Source of the DNA: an uncultured Bdellovibrionales bacterium
GTDB lineage: Bacteria; Patescibacteriota; Minisyncoccia; Moranbacterales; DUUL01
DNA length: 64,000 bases
Reading direction: 5' to 3'
NCBI GenBank assembly: GCA_964346295.1
Contig: CAYFUG010000002.1
Coordinates: forward strand, 7,355-71,354
The position numbers were made by a program, and so were the translations under genes. Shown piece by piece: positions 3,897-63,417 of this stretch (the first letter of the stretch is position 1; every line of letters begins with the position of its first letter). The notes below the pieces were generated by a model. It was not told the DNA's origin. It saw only the letters and a list, made by a program, of their open reading frames with translations, and searched no databases.

Positions 3897-4349
3897 CTAT
3901 TTTTTCTCAGTCTCTTCTTTCTTCTCTTCTTTCTTGGAATCAGCCTCAGCAGGCTTTTCCTCTTTCTTTTCTTCTACCTTCTCTTCCTTTTTAGCAGCTT
4001 CTTCCTTTTGCTTAAATGCCCCTGATTCCTCTTGGGATTTTTCAGCTGCTTCCGTTTTTGAAGCTTCTTTCTCTGGAGTTTCTGGTTTTGGCATTCGGAC
4101 CGGCCGTTTCTTAGCCTCAATTACTCCCTTTTTAACTAGCAAGTTGAAAACCGTATCGGAACAACTAGCCCCCTTTTCTAGCCAGTGCTTAATCCGGTCT
4201 TCTTTTAAAATAGTCTCTTTAGTACTAGGGTCATAACTGCCCAAAGTTTCAATAAAACGTCCCTGGACTGGGAAAGATTTTTCGGCCAAAACAATCCGAT
4301 AAAAAGCTCGGTTTCTTCTGCCTTTGCGAGAAAAACGAATTACCAACAT
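3897..4349 (-). CDS. rpsP: 30S ribosomal protein S16 with a K/E-rich C-terminal extension
   Basis: MLVIRFSRKGRRNRAFYRIVLAEKSFPVQGRFIETLGSYDP matches the bS16 N-terminus; the tail is EEKKEEK low complexity. Confidence 0.9.
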   Translation of the reverse strand: MLVIRFSRKGRRNRAFYRIVLAEKSFPVQGRFIETLGSYDPSTKETILKEDRIKHWLEKGASCSDTVFNLLVKKGVIEAKKRPVRMPKPETPEKEASKTEAAEKSQEESGAFKQKEEAAKKEEKVEEKKEEKPAEADSKKEEKKEETEKK

Positions 4350-10187: not shown

Positions 10188-10420
10188 GAAACTGCCTAAG
10201 GACTATTCTTCTTTGATGAAAGCTCTCTAATTTCGTGCCTCACTTTGGAAGGTAAGATCAGAAGGCAAGAAAGGACTTTTAGTTTAATCTACTGGTAGTA
10301 GTTAGTCTAAGTTACCGGCAAGAACTCTGAACGAGAAAACTCTGAAAAAGAATCCTTGAATTTTTCCTCTCCAGAGCGAAATGGGCACCCGAAATTTAAG
10401 GTTTTCAGGGGAAAATATAG
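10188..10420. repeat. Direct repeat copy 1 (about 233 bp) in the rpsB upstream region
   Basis: gaaactgcctaaggactattcttc...gaaatttaaggttttcagg recurs 498 bp downstream at about 97% identity; its ends loosely resemble the arm motifs of the intergenic repeat family. Confidence 0.85.
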
Positions 10421-10685: not shown

Positions 10686-10918
10686 GAAACTGCCTAAGGA
10701 CTATTCTTCGTTGATGAAAGCTCTCTAATTTCGTGCCTCACTTTGGAAGGTAAGATCAGAAGGCAAGAAAGGACTTTTAGTTTAATCTACTGGTAGTAGT
10801 TAGTCTAAGTTACCGGCAAGAACTCTGAACGAGAAAACTCTGAAAAAGAATCCTTGAATTTTTCCTCTCCAGAGCGAAATGGGCAACCGAAATTTAAGGT
10901 TTTCAGCGGAAAATACAC
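10686..10918. repeat. Direct repeat copy 2 (about 233 bp), separated from copy 1 by about 265 bp of unique sequence
   Basis: Near-identical to 10188-10420 with four visible substitutions. Confidence 0.85.
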
Positions 10919-15335: not shown

Positions 15336-15890
15336 TTGAAAAATCATAACCACACCATGAACAGCAAGACCAAAAAAGGGCCCTCGGAGAAAGGCCTCAA
15401 CCGCTATCATCTTTTAGCCGGAGTAGCTTTAATTTACGGCCTAGTGGCTCTGGCCAATCGAGAACTTGCTCAAGCTGCCATTGTTTCTACCGGCCAAATG
15501 CTAGTAAAAATCCTGCCAATTTTATTAGTGGTGATTGTTTTGATGACTGTTACTAATTGGATTTTCAGCTCAGACTTTGTCTCCCGGCATCTAGGACAAG
15601 AATCCGGCGCCAAAGGCTGGTTTTACGCTGCAATTGGAGGTATTATTGTGGCCGGGCCACCCTACATTCTCTACCCGCTCTTGGGAGATTTGAAGCAAAA
15701 AGGCATGAAGGATTCCCTTTTAGCAATTTTCCTGTATAATCGCAATGTTAAGATCCCCTTCTTCCCGGTTTTAGTTTACTATTTTGGCTGGCCCTTCGCC
15801 CTAGTGCTCTCAGCTTACATCATTCTCTTTTCCGTTTTGAGTGGATTTTTATTTGAAGAGAAATCTAATAAATTGATCAAAAAGCAATGA
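15336..15890 (+). CDS. Putative permease half (DUF318/YraQ-like)
   Basis: GWFYAAIGGIIVAGPPYILYPLLGDLKQKGM is the homologous repeat of the preceding half; overlaps the next ORF by 4 nt. Confidence 0.55.
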   Translation: MKNHNHTMNSKTKKGPSEKGLNRYHLLAGVALIYGLVALANRELAQAAIVSTGQMLVKILPILLVVIVLMTVTNWIFSSDFVSRHLGQESGAKGWFYAAIGGIIVAGPPYILYPLLGDLKQKGMKDSLLAIFLYNRNVKIPFFPVLVYYFGWPFALVLSAYIILFSVLSGFLFEEKSNKLIKKQ

Positions 15891-16282
15891 GAGAATACAT
15901 CCTCGAAAACAAATTGGGAACTCCCCAGTACTGGCCCTACATTCCAACTGCCACTCTAAAAGGCGTCGAAAATGAATCTGATTTTGGCCTTCAAGACAGC
16001 GAAGACAAAAGAGGTGAGGCCGTTCGATCCATGCACAATATAGCGGTACTGAGAGCTACCAGTAAGACTTCAGTTAAGTTTTATGTGGGATTTTTTAAAG
16101 AAGATTTTTCTCAATTCCTAAAACATGAGCTTACTACCGACCTAGACTTTGGAATGCGAGTTGGTTCCAAAAATGTCACTTTTTTCGTTTTACCTGTAGA
16201 CTGGGAAAGCGAAATCAAACTAGAACTGGTCGAAAAAACCACAGAAGATAGCCCGAAATATAAAGAATTAATTCTCTTGTAA
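15887..16282 (+). CDS. Hypothetical protein
   Basis: 131-aa ORF in an operon-like arrangement; no recognisable motif. Confidence 0.45.
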   Translation: MREYILENKLGTPQYWPYIPTATLKGVENESDFGLQDSEDKRGEAVRSMHNIAVLRATSKTSVKFYVGFFKEDFSQFLKHELTTDLDFGMRVGSKNVTFFVLPVDWESEIKLELVEKTTEDSPKYKELILL

Positions 16283-16311
16283 AAACACTCGACCAATTTC
16301 AGTCTCAGTCT

Positions 16312-16462
16312 AGGGCTTTCAAATTTGAGCAAAGCTCTAGGCGACGCCGAGACTTTGGCCGACCTGTCCCGTCTAGCTTTAGCGATGCGGGAGCCGTACT
16401 GATTGGTACGGTGAGGTCAAAACGCAGGCGGCAACAACGAGATTTGCCAAACTTGAAAATCC
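16312..16462 (+). repeat. Intergenic structured repeat, copy A (about 150 nt), ending 1 nt before the start codon of the downstream gene
   Basis: 5' arm agggctttcaaatttgagcaaagctctagg and 3' arm gtacggtgaggtcaaaacgcaggcggcaacaacgagatttgccaaacttgaaaatcc are shared with copies at 34969-35130, 26175-26289, 61190-61269, 17690-17772 and inverted at 42706-42822. The terminal arms are mutually complementary. Confidence 0.8.
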
Positions 16463-16463
16463 T

Positions 16464-17519
16464 ATGAAAACAACCTATTTTTCCACATTCATCTCCGGCG
16501 CCCAAGAAATAGTCCGACGCGCCCTTCAAAAAAGATCCCGGGTCAAAATCATTGACCTGCTGGACGGTTTAGTAGTGTACCAGACGGACTATAACGAGAA
16601 AGATTTGCGAGAAATTCGCTTTTTTAACAACACTTTTCGTCTCCTGGGCAGCTACCAAAATGTCCACGATTTTCTAGATCTAATCAAGGCCGTTACCAAG
16701 GACAAATCTCTCGGTGGAACTCTCAAAAATCTTTTTACAACCCCTACCACCTATCGGCTATTCACCTCAGAGGAAAACCGCTCTATTAATCCGGGCTTGC
16801 CGGCCTTAGAAACTCTAGAGCAAAAAATCTCTCAAAATCGCTACCTAAAAACCGATTTTAAAAAATACCAACAAGAATTTTGGCTCATTTGGCGAAGAGG
16901 AAACCAGGGCTTTCTAGGCGCTCGTATTACTGGTAAAAAGCCTCTCGCCAAGCACCTCAAAGCTGGACAACTCCGCCCAGAACTGGCTCACTTAATTTGC
17001 CTAGCTTCTCGCCCTGGCCCCCAGGAGGTAATTTTGGATCCCTTTGCCGGCCAAGGAGGATTGCTAACGGAGCGCTTACGAGCTTTTCCTTTTAAAAAAG
17101 CTCTCGCCTTAGAAGAAGACGAGAAACTAGCTAATGACCTCAAGGGTAAAATTTTCCGCGCCTATCCCAAAGAAAAAGTCCAAGTCCGCCGAGAGAGCGC
17201 CCTGGAAATGGGATTTTTAGAAAATAACTCCATTGATAAGATCATCACCGATCCGCCCTGGGGACATTTTAAAAAACTAGATCAACCAGAAGAATTTTAC
17301 ACCCAGATGCTCCAGGAATTTTACCGGGTGCTTAAGTCGAGAGGCCTGGCAGTAATTTTGATGGGCGAGAATTTTCAATTTGACCAGATACTCCAAAGCA
17401 TGACAACTAAAGACAAAAATAATCAGGCAGATCCACTTCCCTCACCTTGGAAGATATCAGCCCAACATCACCTGTTAGTTTCTGGCCGAAAAGCTAATTT
17501 GTGGATTTTAAAAAAATAA
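16464..17519 (+). CDS. THUMP-domain class I SAM-dependent RNA methyltransferase (COG0116-like, N2-guanine/N6-adenine type)
   Basis: DPFAGQGG SAM motif I and DPPWG motif IV; N-terminal THUMP-like region. Confidence 0.8.
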   Translation: MKTTYFSTFISGAQEIVRRALQKRSRVKIIDLLDGLVVYQTDYNEKDLREIRFFNNTFRLLGSYQNVHDFLDLIKAVTKDKSLGGTLKNLFTTPTTYRLFTSEENRSINPGLPALETLEQKISQNRYLKTDFKKYQQEFWLIWRRGNQGFLGARITGKKPLAKHLKAGQLRPELAHLICLASRPGPQEVILDPFAGQGGLLTERLRAFPFKKALALEEDEKLANDLKGKIFRAYPKEKVQVRRESALEMGFLENNSIDKIITDPPWGHFKKLDQPEEFYTQMLQEFYRVLKSRGLAVILMGENFQFDQILQSMTTKDKNNQADPLPSPWKISAQHHLLVSGRKANLWILKK

Positions 17520-17628: not shown

Positions 17629-17689
17629 AAACTAGAAATGACTAACAGTCCAAGAACTTTCTCGTTTTAGGACATTTTTAGAGAAAAGT

Positions 17690-17772
17690 GAGGCTTTAGT
17701 TGAGAATTACTGAAGCGTACAGCGAGAGTAAAACGCAGCTTTTGACAACGAAATTTTCAAAGTGAGAAAGTC
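17690..17772 (+). repeat. Intergenic structured repeat, compact copy E
   Basis: gaggctttagttgagaattactgaagc + gtacagcgagagtaaaacgcagcttttgacaacgaaattttcaaagtgagaaagtc matches the family 5' and 3' blocks; lies just 3' of the tRNA-like gene. Confidence 0.65.
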
Positions 17773-17784
17773 TTAGCAATACAG

Positions 17785-17883
17785 TGCAGACGAGAGGATT
17801 CGAACCTCTAACCTCCTTACTTTCTCTCGTTGACACTGCAACGAGAGAAAGTAAAGCGCTCAGCCTTTTTGAGCTTCGTCTGC
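17785..17883 (-). tRNA. tRNA-like gene with a 25-nt insertion in the anticodon loop forming an 18-bp continuous hairpin; anticodon ambiguous (UUC/Glu if 37/38 intron; GAA/Phe alternative)
   Basis: Minus strand reads GCAGACG-AA-GCUC-AAAAAGGCU-GAGC-G-CUUUA-[32 nt]-UAAGG-AGGUU-AGAGG-UUCGAAU-CCUCU-CGUCUGC-A. It has a 7-bp acceptor stem, D arm with GG, and canonical T arm (G53, UUCGAAU, C61). A8 is atypical. No encoded CCA. Confidence 0.6.
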
Positions 17884-23377: not shown

Positions 23378-23428
23378 TTATTATTTTTTAATCGAGTTAT
23401 TTCCTTAGCAACCCTGCAAACATTCTCG

Positions 23429-23456
23429 GTTTTTCAAATTTTGAAAATTTGAAAGG
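23429..23456. repeat. Short palindromic motif (ttcaaattttgaaaatttgaaagg) immediately 3' of a stop codon; compact relative of the repeat family arms
   Basis: Same ttttcaaaatttgaaa palindrome as at 46935-46962, 47796-47830 and 26270-26289. Confidence 0.5.
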
Positions 23457-23463
23457 CTCCTCC

Positions 23464-24606
23464 CTAGCGGGGTCCGAATCCGCATTTCACCTTTAAAATC
23501 TCCCGATTATCCTGGTCAATGATGCACATTACACCTCTATATTTTTCCAGAGAAGTAGAGGCATAGCCCACTTCTCGACTACCAGCTGGAGCCACAAAAT
23601 CCAAGCCTAACGACCCCTTCTGATTCCAGTTTAGCTCCTCTTCGAAAAATTCCTCAGTTTTCTTGATTGTTTCTCGAGAAACATCCTTGGTGGTCACGCT
23701 CATTCCCTTATTGAGCAATAAATTAGCTTGTTCACTGGTCCAAAGTAAATCATTTTCTACCCCTACTTTTCCCACCTCAAATCCGGCTCGAGAATAATTC
23801 TCTAGCTCAATAAATAAATTGATGATTTGATGTCCCCCTCCTTGGGGTTCAGAGTCTTTTACTGTCTGAGGATTCTCTTCTGGAACCTTCTCCTCGCTTG
23901 TCATTATTCCCTTTCCCTCCTCGATTCTCCCCTGATCAGCACTTTTCTCTTCCTGAGGACTAGATATCGCCAATAAATAAAAAGATAAAAAAGTTATCAA
24001 ACCGCCAATAATTACTGCTCTTGCCAACTCAAAAATACCTAGCTGAATCTTTCTACGCAATAGAAAAAGATAAGTTCCCCATAACAATACCACTAACAAG
24101 AACCAATTTACCGAACGAGAAAGCAAAAAAACTCCCATCATCATTACTCCCGCAATAACAGCTACCCGAAAAAAACGTCGGGCCTGATCATCAAGTCTTT
24201 CTTCTGGACTTTCTTCCAAGAGAGATTGGCCAACACCACTTAAATCATCTCCCTCGGATGCTCCCCAAAAATTACTCCCCTGGGCAACGGAATCTTTTTT
24301 CTCAAATTTTTCTTCTTCTTTTTTTAGGTCTTCCTTGGATTTCTCAAGAGCCCCTTCTAAGGTCTCCTTCTCCTTTAAATTCTCTTTGGAAGAACCTTTT
24401 AAACTCTCCTTCGAGACCTCTATTTTTGCCATTTCTTGATTTTCCTTCTCAGAAGAAGATTTTTGTCCTGATTGAAGATCTGATTCCCTTTCAAGGTCAA
24501 GTTCTTCTTCTTTATTAAAAGCATCTTCAGTGCCCCTCTGCTTCCATTTATCCCTCAAAGAGGACTTGACCTTAGTCAATTTACTAAGCCAACCCTTTAA
24601 TTTCAT
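23464..24606 (-). CDS. Hypothetical membrane protein with K/E-rich N-terminal region
   Basis: 380-aa ORF; two central TM helices. Confidence 0.5.
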   Translation of the reverse strand: MKLKGWLSKLTKVKSSLRDKWKQRGTEDAFNKEEELDLERESDLQSGQKSSSEKENQEMAKIEVSKESLKGSSKENLKEKETLEGALEKSKEDLKKEEEKFEKKDSVAQGSNFWGASEGDDLSGVGQSLLEESPEERLDDQARRFFRVAVIAGVMMMGVFLLSRSVNWFLLVVLLWGTYLFLLRRKIQLGIFELARAVIIGGLITFLSFYLLAISSPQEEKSADQGRIEEGKGIMTSEEKVPEENPQTVKDSEPQGGGHQIINLFIELENYSRAGFEVGKVGVENDLLWTSEQANLLLNKGMSVTTKDVSRETIKKTEEFFEEELNWNQKGSLGLDFVAPAGSREVGYASTSLEKYRGVMCIIDQDNREILKVKCGFGPR

Positions 24607-24700: not shown

Positions 24701-25936
24701 ATGAGTTCACTCCAAGACCGAAAAGATCTGGAACCAAGAACCCAGAAACCTAACCAGCCCATTTTGGCTCTTGCCCCCATGGCCGGCTTCACTGACCTCC
24801 CTTTTCGCCTCCTTTGCAAACAACATGGAGCTGATTTGCTGTTCTCTGAGATGATTAGCGCCACTGGACTTTTTCACGAAAAACGAGATAAATCCCTCCA
24901 ACTAGCCCAATCCTGCCCAGAAGACTCTCCGATGTTTTTGCAGCTTTTCGGTTCCGACCCTCAGCATTTCGCCTTCGCCACCCGATTAATCAATCAACTC
25001 CCAGTCAGAGCCAATCCATCTTATTCCAGAAATGATCCTAACAAGAAATCTGAGGAGTTTGTTTTTAAAAAATTTCTAGGAGAATTCGAGCATCGAAGCG
25101 AGATGTACTTAAGGTACGACGAACGAGACGCGGAGAATTCAACAACCAAATTTGAGGAAAACAAACTTCTCAGGCCAGAAGGAATTGACCTAAACCTTGG
25201 CTGCCCCGTCAAAAAAGTCCTTCGCCAAGAGGCCGGCTGTGCTCTAATGGAGAAGCCGCACCTGGTGCGAGAAATTCTCAAGAATATTTTAGGCAACACT
25301 ACTCTCCCGGTTTCTATCAAAATCCGGTCCCGAGGCAAGAGCCTAGACGCCCTCAAGTTTCTAAATGCTCTAGCTGATTTGGACTGGCAATTAGTTACCG
25401 TCCACGCTCGTTCTTTGAATCAAGGTTTTTCCGGCGATCCAGATTGGGCTTTAGTGAAAGAAATCAAGAGAAACTTTCCCCACAAAACCGTTCTGGCCAA
25501 CGGCGGAATTACTGATCTTGCTACCGCCCAAAAAGCCCTAGAAGAAAGTCGAGCTGATGGCTTGGCGCTAGCCCGAGGCGTCCTCGGTAACCCTTGGTTA
25601 TTCAATAAGATCAAGACCAATAGTCGCCCCCTTTCGAAAGGGGAACCAGAAGATTGGCAGTTATCTGAAGCAGAAATATTGGCTACTCCCAGAAAAAAAA
25701 ATGAGGCGCTCGAAAAGCAAATCCCCCTTAGCCGAGTTAGAGCCACCGCCCTCCAGCACGCCAGATTATTTCAACAAATTTTTCCAACAAACGACTTAAA
25801 GCCCCTCCGATCTCATCTTATTTGGTACTTCAAAAATTTTTCTGGAAGCAAAAAAACTCGCTCCCAACTCACTGGAGTGAAAACCTTAGAAGAACTAGAA
25901 AAGATTTTGCAACAAACAATCAGTTCCTCCCTCTAG
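24701..25936 (+). CDS. tRNA-dihydrouridine synthase (Dus family) with internal insertion
   Basis: LALAPMAGFTDLPFRLLCKQHGADLLFSEMISA is the Dus N-terminal signature. Confidence 0.85.
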   Translation: MSSLQDRKDLEPRTQKPNQPILALAPMAGFTDLPFRLLCKQHGADLLFSEMISATGLFHEKRDKSLQLAQSCPEDSPMFLQLFGSDPQHFAFATRLINQLPVRANPSYSRNDPNKKSEEFVFKKFLGEFEHRSEMYLRYDERDAENSTTKFEENKLLRPEGIDLNLGCPVKKVLRQEAGCALMEKPHLVREILKNILGNTTLPVSIKIRSRGKSLDALKFLNALADLDWQLVTVHARSLNQGFSGDPDWALVKEIKRNFPHKTVLANGGITDLATAQKALEESRADGLALARGVLGNPWLFNKIKTNSRPLSKGEPEDWQLSEAEILATPRKKNEALEKQIPLSRVRATALQHARLFQQIFPTNDLKPLRSHLIWYFKNFSGSKKTRSQLTGVKTLEELEKILQQTISSSL

Positions 25937-26044: not shown

Positions 26045-26145
26045 CCTAGGCTTTAGACAGATGGAGGTGCGGCTGAAAATCGAAGCAATCCGCGCTGAAG
26101 AGTGCGACCGAGCGAAAAGCGAGGATTTTTATCAAAATTTGGAAT
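26045..26145 (+). repeat. Intergenic structured repeat, copy B0 (tandem partner of copy B)
   Basis: cctaggctttagacag ... gcgaggatttttatcaaaatttggaat resemble the family 5' and 3' arms. Confidence 0.45.
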
Positions 26146-26174
26146 ATAAACAATATCTAATCAACAACACAAAA

Positions 26175-26289
26175 CTTTTAAGTTTTAGGAAAGCTCTAGA
26201 CGAAGTCGAGGTTTTGAATAAGGCGCACTGAAATGTACGGCGATCTCAAAACGCAGGCAACAATAACGAGATTTTCAAAATTTGAAAGC
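26175..26289 (+). repeat. Intergenic structured repeat, copy B (about 115 nt)
   Basis: cttttaagttttaggaaagctctagacgaagtcgag ... gtacggcgatctcaaaacgcaggcaacaataacgagattttcaaaatttgaaagc. The ORF track translates it as MYGDLKTQATITRFSKFESF. Confidence 0.8.
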
Positions 26290-26301
26290 TTTGACTCTAC
26301 C

Positions 26302-34914: not shown

Positions 34915-34968
34915 AATTCCCTTTTAAACATTAGATAACTCCAAAAAAACCAACCGCCTTCACAGCCC

Positions 34969-35130
34969 AGGGCTTTCAAGTTTGAGTGAAGCTCTACCTG
35001 AGTCTCGTCAACAGGCGAGATCAGCGCCGAGGTTTCGCTCGTAGAGAAGACATGCCATGGCATGTCTCTACCCATACTGTAAAAACAAAACGCAGGCGAC
35101 AACAACGAGATTCACCAAACTTAAAAGTCC
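34969..35130 (+). repeat. Intergenic structured repeat, copy C (about 162 nt), abutting the ftsH stop codon
   Basis: agggctttcaagtttgagtgaagctctacc ... aaaacgcaggcgacaacaacgagattcaccaaacttaaaagtcc. Internal perfect palindrome agacatgccatggcatgtct; inner helix gaagctctac/gtagagaag. Confidence 0.8.
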
Positions 35131-36984
35131 CTAGTCTTTTACCAACGCATCAAACTCATCCTTCTCCAAAGTCTCTTTCCTAATCAACTCCTTAGCTACC
35201 TTCTCTAAAGTCTCTGCTTTTTCGTCTAGAATCTCTCGAGCCTTTTGATGAGCCTCCTCAATAAAGCGACGCACTTCCTCGTCAATGCTTTCCGCCACTC
35301 TCTCGGAGTAGTTTTTGCGCTCTTGAATATCCCGCCCCAAAAATACCAAATCATCATTTTCGCCATAAGTAACCGGCCCCAACTTACTCATTCCAAAGCG
35401 AGTCACCAACTTACGAGCCATCTCCGTCGCCCGCTCTAGATCATTAGAAGCTCCCGTGGTCATCTCATCAAAAATTCGCTCCTCGGCGGCATAACCACCC
35501 AACAGCACCGCCAACTGATCCAAAAAGTAAGAGCGGAACTTCAAAGAACGATCCTTGTCGGGCACATTGAGAGTATAGCCAGCCGCGTGCCCCCGAGAAA
35601 CAATGGAGACTTTATGAACCGGATCAGCATTGGGCAAAGAAGCAGAAATCAAAGCATGCCCTCCTTCGTGATAAGCAGTAACCTTTTTTTCCTCTGGAGA
35701 AAAAACCTTGCTGCGCCGCTCCGGCCCCAAAATTACCTTTTCGATTGCCTCCCTCAGCTCGTCCATGCCAGTGGTTTTCTTGTCCCGCCGAGCCGCCAAA
35801 ATAGCTCCTTCATTAACCAAGTTTGCCAAATCCGCTCCAGAAAAACCCGGTGTTCGCTCAGCAATTTGACGCAATTTAACATCTTTTTCCATTTTTTTAT
35901 CAGTCACATGCAATTTTAAAATTGCCTCTCTTTCTTCAATATCGGGATTATCAATAGTCACTCGCCGATCAAAGCGTCCTGGGCGCAAAAGAGCGGGATC
36001 CAATACATCTGGTCGGTTAGTAGCCGCAATCACAATTACATTCACATTAGTGTCAAATCCGTCCATTTCTACCAAGATTTGATTAAGGGTCTGTTCTCGC
36101 TCGTCGTTACCACCGCCCACGCCGGCTCCTCGATGCCGACCTACTGCGTCAACTTCGTCAATAAAAACAATAGCCGGTGCATTTTTTTTAGCCTGCTTGA
36201 AGAGATCTCGCACTCGGCTAGCTCCCACTCCCACAAACATTTCTACAAATTCGCTTCCAGAGATTGAGAAAAAAGGCACATTAGCCTCTCCAGCCACTGC
36301 CTTGGCCAAAAGAGTTTTTCCAGTACCAGGAGGGCCCAACAGCAAAAATCCTCGCGGGATTCGCGCGCCCAAATCCCAAAATTTCTTAGGATTACGCAAA
36401 AATTCCACTACTTCGTAAAGCTCCTCTTTGGCCTCCTTGGCCCCCGCTACATCTTTGAAGGTAATTCGCCCTTCTTTGTCACGAGCCGGAAGCAAAACTC
36501 GAGCTCGAGAGCGACCAAAGGTCATGGCTTGATTATTGCCTCGCTGGGCTTGCCGCAATAAAAACCAAATAAAAAAAGCAATAAAGAAGAAAGGGAGTAT
36601 AAAAGGAATAAAAACACCCACCCAAAAATCTCGCCCCGAAGTGTCCTCCAGGTTTAACTGAATATCCCTTAGTTTATCCTTCTCCACTCCTACATTAGCC
36701 AAAGATTCCGTCAGGGAACTCTCCGGCTCCTTACGAGAAACTTCCTTGGTGCCATCTTTCAGCTCAATTTCCAGCTCATTGCCCTGGACTTTAATCTCAG
36801 TTACCTCTTCCTCGTTGATTTGACTGGCCAATTCGCTCAGGGAAACCTCCTTTTTCTCTTCTAAAGGAACAGAATAGAGCAAAACTAGACCAGAAATTAC
36901 CACAAAGATACCCAAAAAAATAAATAAATTTCGGGTCAATTTTTTAATAGGACCGCGATTATTAGGATTAACACTTTTTGCCAC
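35131..36984 (-). CDS. ftsH: ATP-dependent zinc metalloprotease FtsH
   Basis: GPPGTGKT Walker A, IDEVD Walker B, second region of homology, HEGGHA zinc motif. Confidence 0.95.
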
Positions 36985-37140: not shown

Positions 37141-38217
37141 TTAAATATCCTTCTTAAACAAAAGCAACCCTTCCCCTTCGCGCTTAACTTGAATTCCTGA
37201 AAAATTTAGCTGCTGATTTTTACCCTTAGCGCTAAAAATAATCTTTTCCAACTCCGCTAAATGTTGCTTGGAAAGGTTGCGCAAATTTCCTTTAAGCTGC
37301 AATATCACTTTTCGCAAAATTAGAGCCCTGGTTGACTTTGATATTTTTTTTAAGCACTTTAAGTTAACCTCGAAAAAATCACTCTTTTCGAGTACTATCT
37401 TAGTATACTGGGTTTGAATATTTTCTTCAATATATTCTTCTGCCTCCTTAGCGATTTGGGATAAACTCACTAAACGATCTTTGATTTGAGATTGATAAGA
37501 TTCTTCTAAAAAGGGAATTAACTCTCCTCGCACTTGATTACGCAAGAAGCTAAAATCTTGGTTGCTCTGGTCTTCTCGCCATCTCTGATCTAACTCCCCA
37601 AGAAAATCTCTGATTTCAAGCTTGGTGAAAGTCAACAAGGGCCGAATCACTCTATCAGTTCGAAGTTTCATCCCTCCTAGACCTCGCAAGCCAGCCCCTC
37701 TTAATAAATTAATTAGAACTGTTTCTGCTTGGTCATCCTTAGTGTGCGCCACTGCGATCCAATCCAGGCCCTCCTGTTTACGCACCTGTTCAAATTTTTG
37801 ATAGCGAAAATTACGAAAAACCTCCTCCTGATTGCTATTGCCGCTAAAAGTACTCCAGTGAGAATCTTTGCGATACCCCCTTTTGTAAAGGGGGCTAGGG
37901 GGATTGAGTAAATCGAGCTGATTCCTGAGTGAATCTTCCTCAAACTTGAAAACTGAAAGTGACAGCTGAAATTCTTGTGCTAAATCTCGCACTAGCTGCT
38001 CATCCTGCTCGGAAGCTTGGCCTCTGACTTGATAGTTAACATGAACCAAGTGAAGTCTAAGCTTGTAACGAGGCCCTAAGCTCAAAAGCAATCTTACTAG
38101 CCCGACCGAATCCGAACCGCCCGAAACTCCCACTACTAATCCAGTTTCTTGATCCTTTCTTAGCCAACCTTGGCGAAAAATTTGCTCCTTAAAACACTTT
38201 ATAAATTTACTGTTCAT
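37141..38217 (-). CDS. tilS: tRNA(Ile)-lysidine synthetase
   Basis: VGVSGGSDSVGL PP-loop SGGxDS motif. Confidence 0.85.
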   Translation of the reverse strand: MNSKFIKCFKEQIFRQGWLRKDQETGLVVGVSGGSDSVGLVRLLLSLGPRYKLRLHLVHVNYQVRGQASEQDEQLVRDLAQEFQLSLSVFKFEEDSLRNQLDLLNPPSPLYKRGYRKDSHWSTFSGNSNQEEVFRNFRYQKFEQVRKQEGLDWIAVAHTKDDQAETVLINLLRGAGLRGLGGMKLRTDRVIRPLLTFTKLEIRDFLGELDQRWREDQSNQDFSFLRNQVRGELIPFLEESYQSQIKDRLVSLSQIAKEAEEYIEENIQTQYTKIVLEKSDFFEVNLKCLKKISKSTRALILRKVILQLKGNLRNLSKQHLAELEKIIFSAKGKNQQLNFSGIQVKREGEGLLLFKKDI

Positions 38218-42610: not shown

Positions 42611-42705
42611 TCAAGTACAAATCGCTTCCCCCAGTTTACTCCGACTGGAAGCTCCGAGACCTCCGTTCCTCCGGGAATGGGGGTCGTTTATTAGTGGAGG
42701 AATTA

Positions 42706-42822
42706 CGCATTTGGAAAATTTCGTTGTTACAAGCTGCGTTTAGCGCTCACCGTACCCTTCAGTACGCCTCCCGCTAAGCCTCGCTTGCGCCTAGTAATTT
42801 CCTCAAATCCGTAATCCCTAGG
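42706..42822 (-). repeat. Intergenic structured repeat, copy K, inverted orientation
   Basis: Minus strand reads ctagggattacggatttgaggaaattactaggcgcaagcgagg ... gtacggtgagcgctaaacgcagcttgtaacaacgaaattttccaaatgcg, matching the family 5' and 3' arms. Confidence 0.75.
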
Positions 42823-46830: not shown

Positions 46831-46934
46831 TATTAAGAAATTTTACTTAAATAGAGCTATCACAGGAGCAAGGCCCTGCTTCAATTTTGACAACCCTAAG
46901 ACTTTCTGAGTTTTATTTTGTTTAAATTTAGATC

Positions 46935-46962
46935 TTTCAAAATTTTCAAAATTTGAAATCCC
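46935..46962. repeat. Short palindromic motif (tttcaaaattttcaaaatttgaaatcc) directly 3' of the clpP stop codon
   Basis: Same palindrome as at 47796-47830 and 23429-23456. Confidence 0.5.
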
Positions 46963-46964
46963 TC

Positions 46965-47546
46965 TTACTTCTTTTTCTCAACTATTTTGTCTATAAGCCC
47001 ATACTTTTTGGCCTCTTCTGCGCTCATATAATAATCTCGGTCGGAGTCCTTCTCCACCCTCTCCACTTTTTGACCGGAATGTTTGGCCAAAATCTCATTG
47101 AGGCGCTGTTTGGTTTTAAGGATATGCTTAGCGTGAATATCGATATCAGTTGCTTGCCCCTCGGTACCGCCCATCACTTGATGAATCATCACTTCACTAT
47201 TGGGCAATCCTAAACGCTTCCCTTTCTTGCCTGCCGCCAAAAGTAGTGCTGCTGCCGATGCTGCCGTCCCCACACAGATAGTGGAAATATCCGGCTTAAC
47301 AAATTGCATGGTATCGTAAATCGCTAAAGCCGCTGAAACATGGCCACCCGGTGAATTAATATAGAGCTTAATGTCCTCCTTGGGATCCTGGGATTGCAAA
47401 AACAGCAACTGAGCAATCACCGCATTAGCCACTTGATCGTTAATGCCGGTGCCCAAAAAAATGATCCGGTCTTTTAATAAACGAGAATAAATGTCGTAAG
47501 CCCGCTCCCCAAATTGGGATTTTTCAATAACAGTAGGGATTAACAT
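46965..47546 (-). CDS. clpP: ATP-dependent Clp protease proteolytic subunit
   Basis: [24 protein letters not shown]...INSPGG...[13 protein letters not shown] ClpP blocks with catalytic Ser context. Confidence 0.95.
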
Positions 47547-47769
47547 AGAAACAAAAGATTAACAAATTTTATTACTAACCACAGATACCAACCCTTCTCG
47601 CTAAAAAGCCAAGATTAGCCTTGATGTTATTAAGCCAATCTTAGCACTAATGACAAAAAAATCAAAAGAGTCTCCCGGCAGGAAGACTCTTTTGAGAAAA
47701 TAAAGACTTAAGGTTTTCAATTTTTAGAAAATTTTAGGAAAAATCGAGTACTGAGCGAGATATACCGAA

Positions 47770-47830
47770 GTGTATAACAAACGAGTAACAGAGATTTTGA
47801 CATCAAAATTTTCAAAATTTGGAAGCCCCT
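47770..47830. repeat. Diverged repeat-family copy with palindromic core, directly 3' of tuf
   Basis: aacaaacgagtaacagagattttgacatcaaaattttcaaaatttggaagcccc resembles the family 3' block plus the palindrome. Confidence 0.45.
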
Positions 47831-47839
47831 CTTTTGTTT

Positions 47840-61189: not shown

Positions 61190-61269
61190 TAAGGAGTTTC
61201 CTCCTTAAATCTTTGTACGGTGAAATCAAAATGCAAGCGACAACAACGAGATTTTCAAAAAAGAAAGTC
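61190..61269 (+). repeat. Intergenic structured repeat, copy D, abutting the pnp stop codon
   Basis: taaggag-tttc-ctcctta hairpin + gtacggtgaaatcaaaatgcaagcgacaacaacgagattttcaaaaaagaaagtcc. The ORF track translates it as MYGEIKMQATTTRFSKK. Confidence 0.75.
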
Positions 61270-63417
61270 CTACTTCAACCGTTTCACTTCATTCTCCATT
61301 CCCTTCATAGTCAAATTAATCCGGCCCATTTGATCAATCTCCGCTACTTTAACTTTAACCTTCTGACCTACCTTGAGATAGTTTTCCACTTTATCAATTC
61401 GCTCGTCAGCAATCTTGGAAATATGCACCAAGCCATCTTTTCCGCCCGGCCAGAGCTCCACAAAGGCTCCAAAGTCCATCAATTTGACCACTCGAGCATC
61501 CGGATAAATCTCGCCTGCTTCCACTTCACGAACAATATCCTGGATCATCTTTTGGGCTTTTTGACCACCCTCTCCGTTTTCGGCAGTGATGAAGATAGTC
61601 CCATCGTCTTCAATGTCAATATTAGCCCCAGTTTCATCAATAATCTCGTTGATAATTTTTCCGCCTGGCCCAATCACCTCCCGAATCTTTTCTTCGGCAA
61701 TTTTCATGGTAATAATACTCGGGGCGTAAGATGAAAGTTCTGCTCGAGGCTCTGGGATAGCTGCTAACATCACCTCCATAATCTCCATTCGAGCCTTATG
61801 AGCCTGCTCCAGCACCTCAATCACTACCTCGGGAGAAATTCCGTCAATTTTCACATCCATCTGCATAGCAGTGATTCCGTCTTTAGTTCCTGCCACCTTA
61901 AAGTCCATATCACCCCAATGGTCTTCCGGTCCTTGAATGTCGGAAAGAATCTTGTACTCGCCATTTTCTCCAGTGATAATTCCCATCGCGATCCCACTCA
62001 CCGGGCTTTTGATTGGAACTCCCGCGTCCATTAAGGAGAGAGTGGATCCGCAAGTAGAGGCCATCGAAGAAGATCCATTAGAACCCAACACTTCACTTAC
62101 CAACAGCATAGTATACGGAAAGTCTTCCTTAGAAGGCAGTACCGGAAGCAAGGCTTTTTCCGCTAAGGCTCCGTGACCAATTTCTCGTCTCCCAGGGCCA
62201 CGCATTGGTCGTACTTCTCCCACACTGAAGGGAGGGAAGTTATAGTGGTGGATATAGCGCTTCTTCTCATCAACCTCCATTGTATCAATAATTTGCTGAT
62301 CACCAGGAGCTCCTAAGGTAGTCACATTAAGAACTTGTGTTTCTCCTCGTTGAAAAAGAGCGCTTCCGTGAATCCGCGGCAATACTCCTACCTTAGAAAT
62401 AATCTTCCGAACCTCATCGGTTCGCCTTCCATCGGGACGAGCCTCTTCCTGAAGAACTTTTTCGTGCAAAATTTCATTGAGACGATTCTCGAATACCAAA
62501 TCGGCTTCTGACCAGCGTTGTTCTTGCAATTTTTTTTCTTCGGCAGTTTGAGCCGGGAACTGCTTCTTTAAAAGCCCCTTGAGGCCGTCTTTAATTTTGT
62601 CCATCTTACCCTTTTGATCGTCTTTAGCTTTAGTATAAAAGGCGTCAGTAAGATCTTCTTGCTCCAAGTAATCTCGCACTTGCTTCTCCCAAGCTTCTTC
62701 TGGCTCAGTAAGAGGCACTGTAGTTTTTTCCTTACCTAACTCGTCGATAATTGACTGCTCAAAACGAGCAACCTTTTGGACTTCTTCGTAAGCCTGCCCA
62801 ATTGCCTCCGCCATCTCTTGATTAGAAATTTCTTCTCCATCCGCCTCAATCATATTGATTTTGTCAGCAGTTCCGGCCACCAACAAATCCAAGTCGCTCT
62901 CTTCCAAATGATCCGCTGCCGGATTGATTACTCGTTCGTTTTCTACCCGACCAATTCGAGCGGCTGCCACTGGTCCCCGCCAAGGAATATTAGAAACTCC
63001 CAATGCCAAAGAAGCGGCAATTATCCCAACAATCGAAGGATCATTTTCTTTGTCGATGGAAAGCACCGTGATAATTACCTGCACTTCGTTGCGCATCCGC
63101 TCATCAAAAAGCGGCCGGATAGTCCGGTCAATGATACGCCCATTGAGAATAGCCTTATCAGAAGGGCGACCTTCTCGCTTAATAAAACGCGAACCTTTAA
63201 TTTTATTGGCCGCGTAATAACGCTCTTCGTAATCCACAAACAGCGGGAAGAAGTTCATGCCTTCTCGTCGTTCTTTGCTCATGGTAGCAGTAGCCAACAC
63301 TACTGTGTCACCACATTGCACCTTAACTGAGCCGTTGGCTTGTTGCGCCAATTCGCCCAATTCTGCTTTCAGTTGCTGGCCGCCAAAATCGACCGCAAAT
63401 TCTTTTTTGTTCATCAA
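61270..63417 (-). CDS. pnp: Polyribonucleotide nucleotidyltransferase (PNPase)
   Basis: Two RNase PH domains, KH and C-terminal S1 (GQKVKVKVAEIDQMGRINLT); 715 aa. Confidence 0.95.
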   Translation of the reverse strand: MMNKKEFAVDFGGQQLKAELGELAQQANGSVKVQCGDTVVLATATMSKERREGMNFFPLFVDYEERYYAANKIKGSRFIKREGRPSDKAILNGRIIDRTIRPLFDERMRNEVQVIITVLSIDKENDPSIVGIIAASLALGVSNIPWRGPVAAARIGRVENERVINPAADHLEESDLDLLVAGTADKINMIEADGEEISNQEMAEAIGQAYEEVQKVARFEQSIIDELGKEKTTVPLTEPEEAWEKQVRDYLEQEDLTDAFYTKAKDDQKGKMDKIKDGLKGLLKKQFPAQTAEEKKLQEQRWSEADLVFENRLNEILHEKVLQEEARPDGRRTDEVRKIISKVGVLPRIHGSALFQRGETQVLNVTTLGAPGDQQIIDTMEVDEKKRYIHHYNFPPFSVGEVRPMRGPGRREIGHGALAEKALLPVLPSKEDFPYTMLLVSEVLGSNGSSSMASTCGSTLSLMDAGVPIKSPVSGIAMGIITGENGEYKILSDIQGPEDHWGDMDFKVAGTKDGITAMQMDVKIDGISPEVVIEVLEQAHKARMEIMEVMLAAIPEPRAELSSYAPSIITMKIAEEKIREVIGPGGKIINEIIDETGANIDIEDDGTIFITAENGEGGQKAQKMIQDIVREVEAGEIYPDARVVKLMDFGAFVELWPGGKDGLVHISKIADERIDKVENYLKVGQKVKVKVAEIDQMGRINLTMKGMENEVKRLK

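What the first reader, a model, noticed from the sequence alone, without database searches (positions are those of the whole stretch)
16312..16462. Family of structured intergenic repeats (REP/MITE-like) inserted directly against start and stop codons; at least 8-10 copies in 64 kb
Clear full-length copies are at 16312-16462 (A), 26175-26289 (B, with a tandem partner B0 at 26045-26145), 34969-35130 (C) and 61190-61269 (D). A compact copy is at 17690-17772 (E) and an inverted copy at 42706-42822 (K). All share a 5' arm agggctttcaaRtttgagYRaagctctaSS and a 3' arm gtacggYga..tcaaaacgcaggcRRcaacaacgagattY.ccaaacttRaaaRtcc. The terminal about 12-15 nt of the two arms are reverse complements (ctttcaaRtttg / caaacttgaaaa). 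The element therefore has terminal inverted repeats, which in RNA would form a closing helix. The interior is variable but keeps structure by compensation: GGC-GAC-GCC in A against GAC-GAA-GUC in B. There is an inner helix aagctcta/ctagctt in A and gaagctctac/gtagagaag in C. Copy-specific perfect hairpins exist, such as ccgtac-tgattg-gtacgg in A and agacatgccatggcatgtct in C. Copies C and D end exactly at the stop codons of ftsH and pnp, and copy A ends 1 nt before an ATG. This implies a strong insertion-site preference or a UTR function. The density suggests a genome-wide mobile or regulatory repeat that standard annotation ignores.
Basis: seen in the sequence. Interest (0 to 1): 0.8.

Follow-up and report, generated by a model that had tools for sequence, protein, structure and literature searches.

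The report
Palindromic mobile repeat family in CPR bacterium
A small-genome Patescibacteria (CPR) bacterium carries a lineage-specific family of about 125-nt hairpin-forming repeats, most likely non-autonomous mobile DNA like the Rickettsia palindromic elements, that sit against start and stop codons and, in one case, in frame inside a conserved enzyme gene.

Summary
The repeat family is real. I find seven full-length copies: A 16310-16467, E 17651-17778, J 25050-25175, B 26169-26296, C 34967-35135, K 42694-42821(-) and F 47708-47833. There is also one internally deleted copy (D), one decayed copy (B0) and two arm-only hairpins.

All full copies fold into one long irregular hairpin. It has a 24-bp closing helix made from the two ends and three inner helices. 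27 of 41 pairs show compensatory changes (0/500 shuffles), and the unpaired bases are conserved. No Rfam family matches.

It lies in frame (42 codons) inside the tRNA-dihydrouridine synthase gene. It is kept in a related species with 5 compensatory pair changes, and homologues from other Patescibacteria lack it.

Copy E is absent from the syntenic site of that relative. Relatives with 72-74% identical FtsH have no copy within 10 kb of ftsH.

The ends read C-TA-GGGCTTTC...GAAAGCCC-TA-G. The flanking TA explains why copies abut TAG stop codons and an ATG.

Copies lie in both orientations relative to transcription (5 sense, 4 antisense), but 9 of 10 are on one DNA strand.

Best reading: a new MITE/RPE-like selfish palindromic element. 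The transposase and the mechanism of movement are unknown.

The parts
16310..16467 (+). Copy A. Full length, with a 32-nt extra hairpin inserted between P3 and P4. The left end is C-TA-GGGC. The right end is TCC-TA-TG, where ATG is the start of the Trm11/RlmL-like methyltransferase gene.
   Evidence: (105 bits). Pfam assignment of the downstream gene.
17651..17778 (+). Copy E. Full length. It lies between a minus-strand intrinsic terminator (about 17625-17598) and the minus-strand tRNA 17785-17883, so it is read antisense in the tRNA trailer. It is absent from the syntenic site of the relative.
   Evidence: 121 bits. Absence in L062.
25050..25175 (+). Copy J. Full length, in frame (42 codons, no stop) inside the tRNA-dihydrouridine synthase ORF 24701..25936. 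The conserved P4 loop ACUGAAG is ACUUAAG here, which removes the in-frame TGA.
   Evidence: (52 bits, E 4.5e-10). Orthologue L058 1274-1399. Compensation test. pLDDT below 50 over aa 105-155.
26046..26150 (+). Copy B0. A decayed member that resembles F in P4 and the 3' arm. Its closing helix is broken.
   Evidence: Not scored by models R1/R2. Assigned by eye from shared segments, so this is the weakest part.
26169..26296 (+). Copy B. Full length. It ends 8 nt before the likely ATG (26302) of an AI-2E transporter gene. Gene callers extend the ORF into the element (ATG 26233).
   Evidence: (130 bits).
34967..35135 (+). Copy C. Ends and the 3' core are intact. P4 is replaced by a copy-specific perfect hairpin, and there is an extra hairpin in J1/2. 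The right end is CCC-TA-G, where CTA is the TAG stop of ftsH (minus strand). An orthologous copy is present in the relative.
   Evidence: 48 bits; 65 bits. Relative L059.
42694..42821 (-). Copy K. Full length and the only minus-strand copy. It lies between a PemK/MazF-like toxin gene and an aminotransferase gene (both minus). Its outer closing helix has a different sequence but still pairs.
   Evidence: (137 bits).
47708..47833 (+). Copy F. Full length, a divergent subtype. It lies between the tuf stop codon (47840) and a 15-bp minus-strand intrinsic terminator (47695-47662), that is, antisense in the tuf 3' UTR.
   Evidence: (66 bits, E 1.6e-13).
61190..61275 (+). Copy D. Internally deleted. 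It keeps the 5' end (TA-AGGAGTTTC), P4's 3' half, the 3' core and the 3' end (GAAAGTCC-TA). CTA at 61270-61272 is the TAG stop of pnp (minus strand).
   Evidence: (23 bits, E 0.003).
23425..23463 (.). Arm-only hairpin (TTTTTCAAATTTTGAAAATTTGAAAGG). It consists of the closing-helix arms without an interior, and lies next to the CTA (= TAG) stop of the minus-strand gene 23464..24606.
   Evidence: D5, I10; 15 bits, weak.
46926..46965 (.). Arm-only hairpin (GATCTTTCAAAATTTTCAAAATTTGAAATCCC). It lies 3 nt from the TAA stop of clpP (minus strand).
   Evidence: D5, I10; 12 bits, weak.

Best explanation
This is a lineage-specific family of short (about 125 nt, up to 170 nt with secondary insertions), non-coding, non-autonomous palindromic mobile elements in a Patescibacteria (CPR) genome. 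They are of the same kind as bacterial MITEs and especially the Rickettsia palindromic elements.

**Structure (shown).** Each copy is one long irregular hairpin.
- The two ends (consensus GGGCTTTCAAATTTGAGnAAAGCTC / GAGATTTnCCAAAYTTGAAAGCCC) form a 24-bp closing helix, P1.
- Three shorter helices follow: P2 of 4-6 bp, P3 of 6-7 bp and P4 of 5-6 bp.
- The helices are separated by conserved unpaired bases (UAG, GAG, CUGAAG loop, AAACGCAG, AACAAC).

**Insertion site (inferred).** Copies were inserted at TA dinucleotides, often in a CTAG context. The junctions read C-TA-[element]-TA-G. In a gene-dense genome the tolerated TA sites are those in or next to stop codons (TA plus the element's first G recreates TAG) or just before an ATG. 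This explains the boundary positions.

**Copy fates (shown).**
- Most copies end up in UTRs, in either transcriptional orientation.
- One landed in a surface loop of Dus and is translated. It lost its in-frame TGA and a base in the P4 loop.
- Copies decay, suffer internal deletions down to arm-only hairpins, and receive secondary insertions.

**Hairpin maintenance (shown and inferred).** It is shown that pairing is kept after divergence, even between orthologous copies in two species. It is inferred that the fold of a single strand, not only the end sequence, is what the mobility machinery or a repair bias acts on.

**Transposase.** None was seen. Two options remain open and neither was tested: a TA-specific IS630/Tc1-type enzyme supplied in trans, or a structure-specific single-strand mechanism. 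The latter is suggested by 9 of 10 copies lying on one DNA strand.
For: **Family and structure.**
- The core motif occurs 4 times against 0 expected.
- A model trained on 4 copies finds 4 more.
- The same fold comes from independent MFE folds and RNAalifold.
- Across 8 copies 87.9% of cells are paired, against 71.7% when shuffled and 32-52% when the partner is slid. 27 of 41 pairs change on both sides; 0/500 shuffles reach this.

**Not a known RNA.** Rfam gives nothing at gathering thresholds or at E up to 10.

**Mobile-element traits.**
- Termini are inverted and TA-flanked. TA sits at 8 of 18 aligned junction positions, against a window-wide TA frequency of 0.06.
- IS630-family elements duplicate TA and prefer CTAG (PMC2170065).
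- An internally deleted copy D, a decayed copy B0 and arm-only hairpins exist.
- Nested insertions occur in A, C and the relative's ftsH copy.
- Copy E is missing from a fully syntenic interval (methyltransferase, terminator, tRNA, NUDIX) in a relative whose methyltransferase is 77% identical.
- No copy lies within 10 kb of ftsH in two relatives with 72-74% identical FtsH.
- 55 loci from pattern scans of species-representative genomes, viral contigs and metagenomes contain no member.

**Coding copy.**
- PDB Dus alignments show about 58 extra residues at aa 97-161.
- About 120 Patescibacteria Dus homologues are 302-364 aa long, and the five that were aligned lack the insertion. Only the 62-71% identical relative shares it.
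- The insert is modelled with pLDDT below 50 while the TIM barrel around it is confident.

**Orientation.** 5 copies are sense and 4 antisense to local transcription. F lies upstream of the tuf terminator and E upstream of the tRNA terminator.

**Context.** No transposase is present in the window; it holds housekeeping genes only.
Against: - No autonomous element or transposase with matching ends was found. Only 64 kb plus about 8.5 kb of the relative could be examined.
- No clean empty site was recovered. The TA could therefore be part of the inverted repeat rather than a target duplication. The flanks of the E indel are too diverged to read.
- Copy A's absence in the relative coincides with a synteny break, so it is not a clean polymorphism.
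- Dead selfish copies are not expected to keep pairing. The 6 doubly changed pairs between the orthologous Dus copies (5 still paired, P about 0.01 for that many double hits) point to a continuing constraint or to hairpin-templated mutation. Conserved unpaired bases combined with variable helices is the usual signature of a functional structured nucleic acid.
- The arm sequences differ by about 40-50% between copies. That is awkward for a sequence-specific DDE transposase unless several subfamilies exist.
- The strand bias (9 of 10, two-sided P 0.02) is not predicted by a symmetrical cut-and-paste model.
Confidence: 0.7

Rival explanations
1. A family of functional structured RNAs. These would be cis-acting UTR elements such as mRNA stabilisers, processing (RNase III/E) sites, a protein-binding platform, or an unrecognised ribozyme, each kept at its locus for that function.
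For: - Covariation is strong in four helices, and unpaired nucleotides are conserved.
- Compensatory changes occur between orthologous copies in two species.
- Many copies lie within transcription units, directly next to coding sequences.
- G-U pairs slightly outnumber A-C mismatches on the sense strand, 22 to 15.
Against: - 4 of 9 oriented copies would be transcribed as the reverse complement (C, D and F downstream of minus-strand genes; E in the tRNA trailer). The conserved asymmetric loops would then not be presented in RNA.
- One copy is translated inside Dus.
- E is absent at a syntenic site in a close relative.
- Truncated and arm-only derivatives exist.
- Nothing was found in 72-74% FtsH relatives or in wide pattern scans.
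- There is no Rfam match.
- The G-U excess is not significant.
Confidence: 0.15
2. A host DNA-level signal read on one strand, for example a binding site for a nucleoid or replication/segregation protein, or a folded single-strand recombination site. Its polarity would follow the replication direction.
For: - 9 of 10 oriented copies are on the window's + strand whatever the gene orientation (two-sided P 0.02).
- GC skew is negative across the whole window, as for a single replichore.
- The structure is conserved more than the sequence, as in integron attC sites (the attC comparison rests on my own knowledge).
Against: - Copies are irregularly spaced and vary in completeness.
- One is inside a coding sequence.
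- One is absent in a close relative.
- No integrase, HUH or tyrosine recombinase gene is in the window.
- n = 10 is small.
Confidence: 0.08
3. Chance similarity of A/T-rich low-complexity intergenic DNA.
For: The outer arms are A/T-rich (TTTCAAATTTG), and short arm-like motifs recur (family D5).
Against: - The G+C-containing core has 0 matches in shuffles.
- Model hits have E-values from 1e-10 to 1e-30.
- Covariation exceeds all controls.
Confidence: 0.01

Closest known systems
Rickettsia palindromic elements (RPE)
   Same: - Palindromic repeats of about 100-150 bp in a reduced genome.
- Found in intergenic regions and also in frame inside conserved protein genes, where they are translated as an extra surface peptide (PMC10969869).
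- No transposase of their own.
- Lineage restricted.
- Hairpin kept by paired changes.
   Different: - A different phylum, and no sequence relation was shown.
- Only one gene here (Dus) carries a recognisable copy. Its peptide is found in no other protein among 1.84 billion representatives, so in-frame spread is not shown to be a general habit.
- Most copies have stop codons in the frame used in Dus.
Correia elements (CREE) of Neisseria and other TA-duplicating MITEs linked to the IS630/Tc1-mariner family
   Same: - Size of 100-155 bp.
- Inverted ends of about 25 bp, flanked by TA.
- Placed immediately next to genes.
- Co-transcribed, so that the ends form a long RNA duplex (a known RNase III substrate in Neisseria; PMC10969869).
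- IS630-family elements insert at TA, preferentially in CTAG (PMC2170065).
   Different: - No sequence similarity.
- No sigma-70-like promoter was found in the copies scanned.
- The interior here is a conserved multi-helix fold with covariation, not only two ends.
- The copies show a strand bias.
- Target duplication is not proven.
ERIC/IRU repeats of enterobacteria
   Same: Imperfect palindromes of about 127 bp in transcribed intergenic regions, in either orientation, that can alter mRNA stability (PMC10969869).
   Different: Unrelated sequence and host. ERIC copies are rarely intragenic.
REP/BIME elements with RAYT transposases, and IS200/IS605-derived palindrome-associated elements
   Same: Recognition of a folded hairpin rather than of inverted ends, and orientation linked to replication (from my own knowledge). 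This would fit the structure conservation and the strand bias.
   Different: REPs are hairpins of 20-40 nt. IS200/IS605 derivatives have separate subterminal hairpins, no terminal inverted repeats and no TA flanks. No HUH transposase gene was seen in the window.

Membership tests
Prokaryotic MITE (as defined in PMC10969869) | Small (under 500 bp) with no transposase gene | tested here: met
   Copies are 83-169 nt. No ORF other than read-through of host ORFs.
Prokaryotic MITE (as defined in PMC10969869) | Terminal inverted repeats | tested here: met
   A 24-bp closing helix made of the two ends, 91% paired over 8 copies.
Prokaryotic MITE (as defined in PMC10969869) | Flanking direct repeat (target-site duplication) | tested here: inconclusive
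   TA is present on both sides in A and D and on one side in C, E, F and K. TA is self-complementary and no empty site was recovered, so duplication cannot be separated from the end of the repeat.
Prokaryotic MITE (as defined in PMC10969869) | Multiple dispersed copies, with presence/absence differences between relatives | tested here: met
   9 copies plus 2 arm-only hairpins in 64 kb. E is absent from the syntenic site in L062. C and J are conserved in the relative.
Prokaryotic MITE (as defined in PMC10969869) | A related autonomous insertion sequence with the same ends (type I MITE) | not testable with these tools
   No transposase domain in any ORF of at least 80 aa in the window. The rest of the genome could not be fetched.
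Rickettsia palindromic elements | Sequence membership in one of the described RPE families of Rickettsia | not tested
   No RPE consensus was available. Host phylum and sequences differ, so this is treated as an analogue and not a member.
Rickettsia palindromic elements | In-frame insertion into conserved protein genes, at sites compatible with the fold | tested here: met
   Copy J is 42 codons in Dus, between a helix (aa 87-98) and a strand (aa 161-166) of the TIM barrel. Homologues lack it. Only this one gene was found.
Any Rfam RNA family (riboswitch, ribozyme, sRNA, leader) | Score at or above the family's gathering threshold | tested here: not met
   Whole window at gathering thresholds: only a tRNA. 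Permissive scans over A, E and K: nothing overlapping a copy other than two chance-level hits that only clip the 3' end of copy E (YrlA 18.8 bits, gathering 69; MIR535 15.8 bits, gathering 64; both extend into the adjacent tRNA).
REP elements | Imperfect palindrome of 20-40 nt, usually in clusters, with a RAYT gene in the genome | tested here: not met
   The unit is about 125 nt with four helices. No clusters other than B0+B. No HUH/Y1 transposase in the window.
Integron attC sites | Arrays of promoterless cassettes next to an integron integrase, with an attC after each cassette | tested here: not met
   Neighbours are housekeeping genes in both orientations (ftsH, pnp, tuf, clpP, dus). No integrase.

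The most novel reading that the evidence does not exclude
The elements would be a structure-defined mobile element. In this reading a folded single strand (multi-helix hairpin with conserved unpaired bases) is the substrate, not the end sequence, and movement is coupled to replication. That would account for the 9-of-10 strand bias and for pairing being kept even between orthologous copies inside a coding sequence.

A related oddity would then belong to the same story. A perfect 13-bp hairpin with the same CTTTC...GAAAG ends sits in the anticodon loop of an otherwise strongly conserved tRNA (readable as Glu-UUC) in both species. If that tRNA is functional, the hairpin must be removed from the RNA. 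It would be a short bacterial tRNA intervening sequence that is not a group I intron.
Probability: 0.1. Interest if true: 0.8.

Novelty: new member of a known kind. Interest (0 to 1): 0.45.

Why it matters
**Load on a small genome.** CPR/Patescibacteria genomes are small and gene-dense, and I found no report of MITEs in them. Here a single repeat family fills about 2% of a 64-kb stretch and about 12% of its intergenic DNA.

**Effects on genes.**
- It rewrites the sequence immediately next to the start or stop codons of core genes (ftsH, pnp, tuf, clpP).
- It adds about 42 residues to a conserved tRNA-modification enzyme.
- It misleads gene callers, for example the extended AI-2E transporter ORF.

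**Practical uses.**
- A covariance model of the family would improve annotation of this clade.
- It would give markers for strain-level comparison (filled versus empty sites).

**Open question.** The system lets one ask why palindromic selfish DNA keeps its base pairing after insertion. The same question was raised for Rickettsia and never settled.

Tried and rejected
- **Pattern scans.** I scanned 185,579 species-representative genomes, IMG/VR and JGI metagenomes with the core AAACGCAGNNNNNNAYAACGARATT. This gave 19, 1 and 36 single hits, about the chance number. None is a member when rescored with the model.
- **Known RNA families.** Rfam was searched at gathering and permissive thresholds. 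Nothing was found.
- **Hammerhead idea.** I considered a hammerhead-like reading of CUGA...GAAA. The core does not fit, and the Rfam hammerhead models are silent.
- **tmRNA idea.** I considered a tmRNA-tag-like reading of GCAGGCGGCAACAACGAG. I rejected it because there are multiple copies, no tRNA-like ends and ARAGORN finds nothing.
- **Peptide search.** I searched a profile of the Dus-encoded peptide against 1.84 billion representative proteins to look for other in-frame copies. Only Dus itself matched.
- **Outward promoter or terminator role.** The sigma-70 and terminator scans show no promoter in C or F and none that fits A. The terminators lie outside the elements. Nearly all genes here lack a Shine-Dalgarno sequence (5 of 59), so its absence after A and B means nothing.
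- **Strand of folding.** G-U against A-C counts are 22 to 15, which is not decisive.
- **General hairpin flood.** Only 7 perfect or near-perfect hairpins of at least 11 bp occur in the window, against about 2 in shuffles. The arm-only derivatives are therefore few.
- **Transposase in the window.** None was found.
- **Clean empty site for A.** The upstream gene differs in the relative (a synteny break), so A's absence there is not a clean test.

Full report

Yes. The conserved 3' core AAACGCAG-N5-AAYAACGAGATT occurs four times with at most two mismatches, and never in 100 shuffles. The repeat finder groups A, B, C, D and E in one direct-repeat family and finds K as their inverted partner.

I built a covariance model from only four copies (A with its private insertion trimmed, B, E, K). 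I searched the window with all filters off.
- It recovered C and D.
F is at 47708-47833 (66 bits, E 1.6e-13). J is at 25050-25175 (52 bits, E 4.5e-10).
- A second model built from eight copies found nothing more.

Census for the 64 kb:
- Seven full-length copies: A, B, C, E, F, J, K.
- One internally deleted copy with both ends: D.
- One decayed copy: B0, assigned by eye.
- Two hairpins made only of the arms: 23425-23463 and 46926-46965.

Together these are about 1.2 kb. That is about 2% of the window and about 12% of its 10.3 kb of intergenic DNA.

**2. Anatomy**

Independent minimum-energy folds of A, B, C, K, E and F give the same architecture, and RNAalifold agrees.
- The two ends form a 24-bp closing helix, P1, with a conserved bulged A and a 1x1 loop.
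- An internal loop follows (5' UAGRNRA / 3' NAACAAC).
- Then P2 (4-6 bp).
- Then a second internal loop (5' GAG / 3' AAACGCAG).
- Then P3 (6-7 bp).
- Last comes the hairpin P4 (CGUAC-UGAAGG-GUACG), flanked by GAG and GYGAG.

On the eight-copy alignment, 87.9% of cells are standard pairs. This compares with 71.7% after shuffling partners and 32-52% when partners are slid by 1-3 columns. 27 of 41 pairs show changes on both sides, and none of 500 shuffles reaches any of the five measures. The alignment was fitted to the model, which favours the structure, but the margin is large.

The bases it paired locally (GGC-GAC-GCC and aagctcta/ctagctt) belong to the long-range helices P2 and inner P1. Its 'copy-specific' hairpin ccgtac...gtacgg is the conserved P4. 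Copy C has lost P4 to a private perfect hairpin and has an extra hairpin in the first internal loop. Copy A has a 32-nt private hairpin between P3 and P4.

**3. Not a known RNA**

Rfam at gathering thresholds finds only a tRNA in the window. Permissive scans over A, E and K give nothing that overlaps a copy beyond two chance-level hits (YrlA, MIR535) that clip the 3' end of copy E. ARAGORN finds no tmRNA.

**4. Host and distribution**

Names attached to homologues of Dus, FtsH and the methyltransferase place the organism in Patescibacteria/CPR. The same genome is present in a Logan assembly of run ERR1878606.

Pattern scans of species-representative genomes, viral contigs and metagenomes gave only chance-level single hits. 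None is a member when rescored.

One close relative exists in JGI sample 3300037274, with FtsH 93%, methyltransferase 77% and Dus 62-71% identical. Two relatives with 72-74% identical FtsH have no copy within 10 kb of ftsH. The family is narrow, as expected of selfish repeats and not of a widely used RNA.

**5. The coding copy**

Copy J lies inside the 411-aa tRNA-dihydrouridine synthase ORF (24701..25936). It is 126 nt, or 42 codons, in frame and without a stop.
- Solved DusB and Thermotoga Dus align on both sides and show about 58 extra residues at aa 97-161.
- About 120 Patescibacteria homologues are 302-364 aa long. The five that were aligned lack the segment.
- In an AlphaFold model the TIM barrel is confident and residues 105-155 are below pLDDT 50. 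The segment lies between a helix (aa 87-98) and a strand (aa 161-166).

In the frame used, every other copy has a TGA in the P4 loop (GUACUGA). J and its orthologue read GUACUUAAG, which removes the stop and one base. This argues that J is translated.

The relative carries the same insertion (L058 1274-1399, 56 bits). It also has a partial extra 3' arm just upstream. Between the two orthologues, 21 of 80 paired positions differ. Six pairs changed on both sides and five of them still pair, and so many double hits are expected by chance with P about 0.01. For example, CUGAGGAGUUUG/CAAACUUCUCAG became CUGAAAGGCUUA/UAAGCCUUUCAG.

A profile of the encoded peptide finds no other protein among 1.84 billion representatives. 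Recurrent in-frame spread, as in Rickettsia, is therefore not shown.

**6. Gain and loss**

Downstream of ftsH the relative has a copy at the same place and in the same orientation, again with the stop codon made of TA plus the element's terminal base. It keeps the P4 that our copy C has lost, and it carries its own GC-rich hairpin insertions.

The interval methyltransferase, minus-strand terminator, tRNA, NUDIX gene is collinear in both genomes. Ours holds copy E between the terminator and the tRNA (162 nt), while the relative has 50 unrelated nucleotides there. Copy A is also missing upstream of the relative's methyltransferase, but the upstream gene differs there, so that comparison is not clean.

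**7. Ends and gene boundaries**

Aligned junctions read C-TA-GGGCTTTC ... GAAAGCCC-TA-G. TA is at the junction on both sides in A and D, and on one side in C, E, F and K. The window-wide TA frequency is 0.06.

IS630/Tc1-type transposases insert at TA, duplicate it, and IS630 prefers CTAG (PMC2170065). With such a target the boundary positions follow.
- For ftsH and pnp here, and for ftsH in the relative, the stop codon is TA plus the first G of the element.
- For A, the ATG is the A of TA plus TG.

Because TA pairs with itself and no empty allele was recovered, a true duplication is not proven.

**8. Orientation**

Relative to local transcription, five copies are sense (A, B0, B, J, K) and four antisense.
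- C, D and F lie downstream of minus-strand genes. F sits between the tuf stop and a 15-bp terminator.
- E lies between the tRNA and its terminator.

A function that needs the sense RNA is therefore unlikely.

In absolute terms 9 of 10 oriented copies lie on the + strand (two-sided P 0.02), in a window with uniformly negative GC skew. G-U pairs only slightly outnumber A-C mismatches, 22 to 15.

**9. Interpretation**

The features listed below fit a non-autonomous mobile palindromic element. The closest analogues are the Rickettsia palindromic elements and TA-flanked MITEs such as Correia (PMC10969869).
- Inverted TA-flanked ends.
- Dispersed copies and degenerate derivatives.
- Nested insertions.
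- A lineage-restricted distribution.
- One gain or loss between close relatives.
- Both transcriptional orientations.
- A translated in-frame copy.

What does not fit a simple dead-transposon picture is the persistence of pairing in all four helices together with conserved unpaired bases, even between orthologues. There are three possible causes.
- Selection on a folded single strand that the mobility machinery needs.
- Selection on RNA, for example avoiding or permitting RNase cuts.
- Hairpin-templated mutation in quasi-palindromes, a known mutational bias (my own knowledge, not tested here).

The transposase is unknown. None is encoded in the window.

**10. Verdict**

The element is a new family of a known kind, in a phylum where I found no report of such repeats. 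Interest is moderate. The structure-dependent and strand-biased aspects, and the hairpin in the neighbouring tRNA, are the parts that could make it more than that.

Noticed in passing
window 17785-17883 (-), hairpin 17815-17856; relative L062 2462-2558: A tRNA gene (Rfam 47 bits; ARAGORN misses it) has 32 nt where the 7-nt anticodon loop should be. These form a perfect 13-bp hairpin, CUUUCUCUCGUUG-CAGUGU-CAACGAGAGAAAG, which extends the anticodon stem to 18 bp. The relative has the same arrangement. Its tRNA body differs at 2 of 67 positions, the insert at 6 of 32, and the flanks are unalignable. The only reading that gives the same anticodon in both species is Glu(UUC) with a 25-nt insert after C36. 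The hairpin ends (TA-CTTTC...GAAAG-TA) resemble the ends of the repeat family, and the model scores it weakly (18 bits). A pseudogene, an RNA-level excision or an unusual tRNA-like RNA all remain possible. The paper on tRNA introns in Patescibacteria (PMC13011429) describes only group I introns.
   Followed up: partly
window 10188-10417 and 10686-10915: Two 230-nt direct copies, 99% identical and 498 nt apart, lie in the 762-nt gap between rpsB and a DUF4012 gene. There is no ORF over 52 aa and no Rfam match. They could be a duplicated non-coding RNA or a promoter region.
   Followed up: no
window about 25628-25715 (Dus aa 310-338); L058 1840-1950: A second lineage-specific insertion in Dus (pLDDT below 50), absent from the other aligned homologues. 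Ours contains the perfect palindrome CCCCTTTCGAAAGGGG (about 25628-25643). The relative's version contains three GC-rich hairpins. Coding sequences in this lineage seem to accept small palindromes repeatedly.
   Followed up: partly
L058 1150-1176; L059 about 2690-2715 and 2560-2600: The relative has a separate family of short GC-rich hairpins (CCTGCCTG-YCGG-CAGGCAGG and similar). They are inserted in frame in Dus and inside its ftsH-downstream copy of the main element. They were not seen in the window.
   Followed up: no
whole window: 9 of 10 oriented copies of the repeat lie on the + strand regardless of gene direction. GC skew is negative throughout. This may be a replication-linked polarity.
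   Followed up: partly
whole window, gene starts: Only 5 of 59 gene starts have a Shine-Dalgarno-like motif within 20 nt upstream. This genome appears to initiate translation largely without one.
   Followed up: yes
window 26233-26301; L020 15363-16556: Public gene calls start the AI-2E transporter at ATG 26233 inside copy B. This adds 23 residues encoded by the repeat. The Pfam match begins just after the ATG at 26302, which is the more likely start.
   Followed up: partly
window 3897-4349 (-): Ribosomal protein S16 is 150 aa, with the Pfam domain in residues 8-64 only. The C-terminal extension is encoded by low-complexity CTTCTT-rich DNA (repeat family D3).
   Followed up: no
L059 1-650 and L062 1-1030 versus window 37141-38217 and 15336-16282: Gene order differs between the window and its close relative immediately upstream of ftsH and upstream of the methyltransferase. 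The second breakpoint is at copy A, and ftsH carries copy C at its other (3') end.
   Followed up: no
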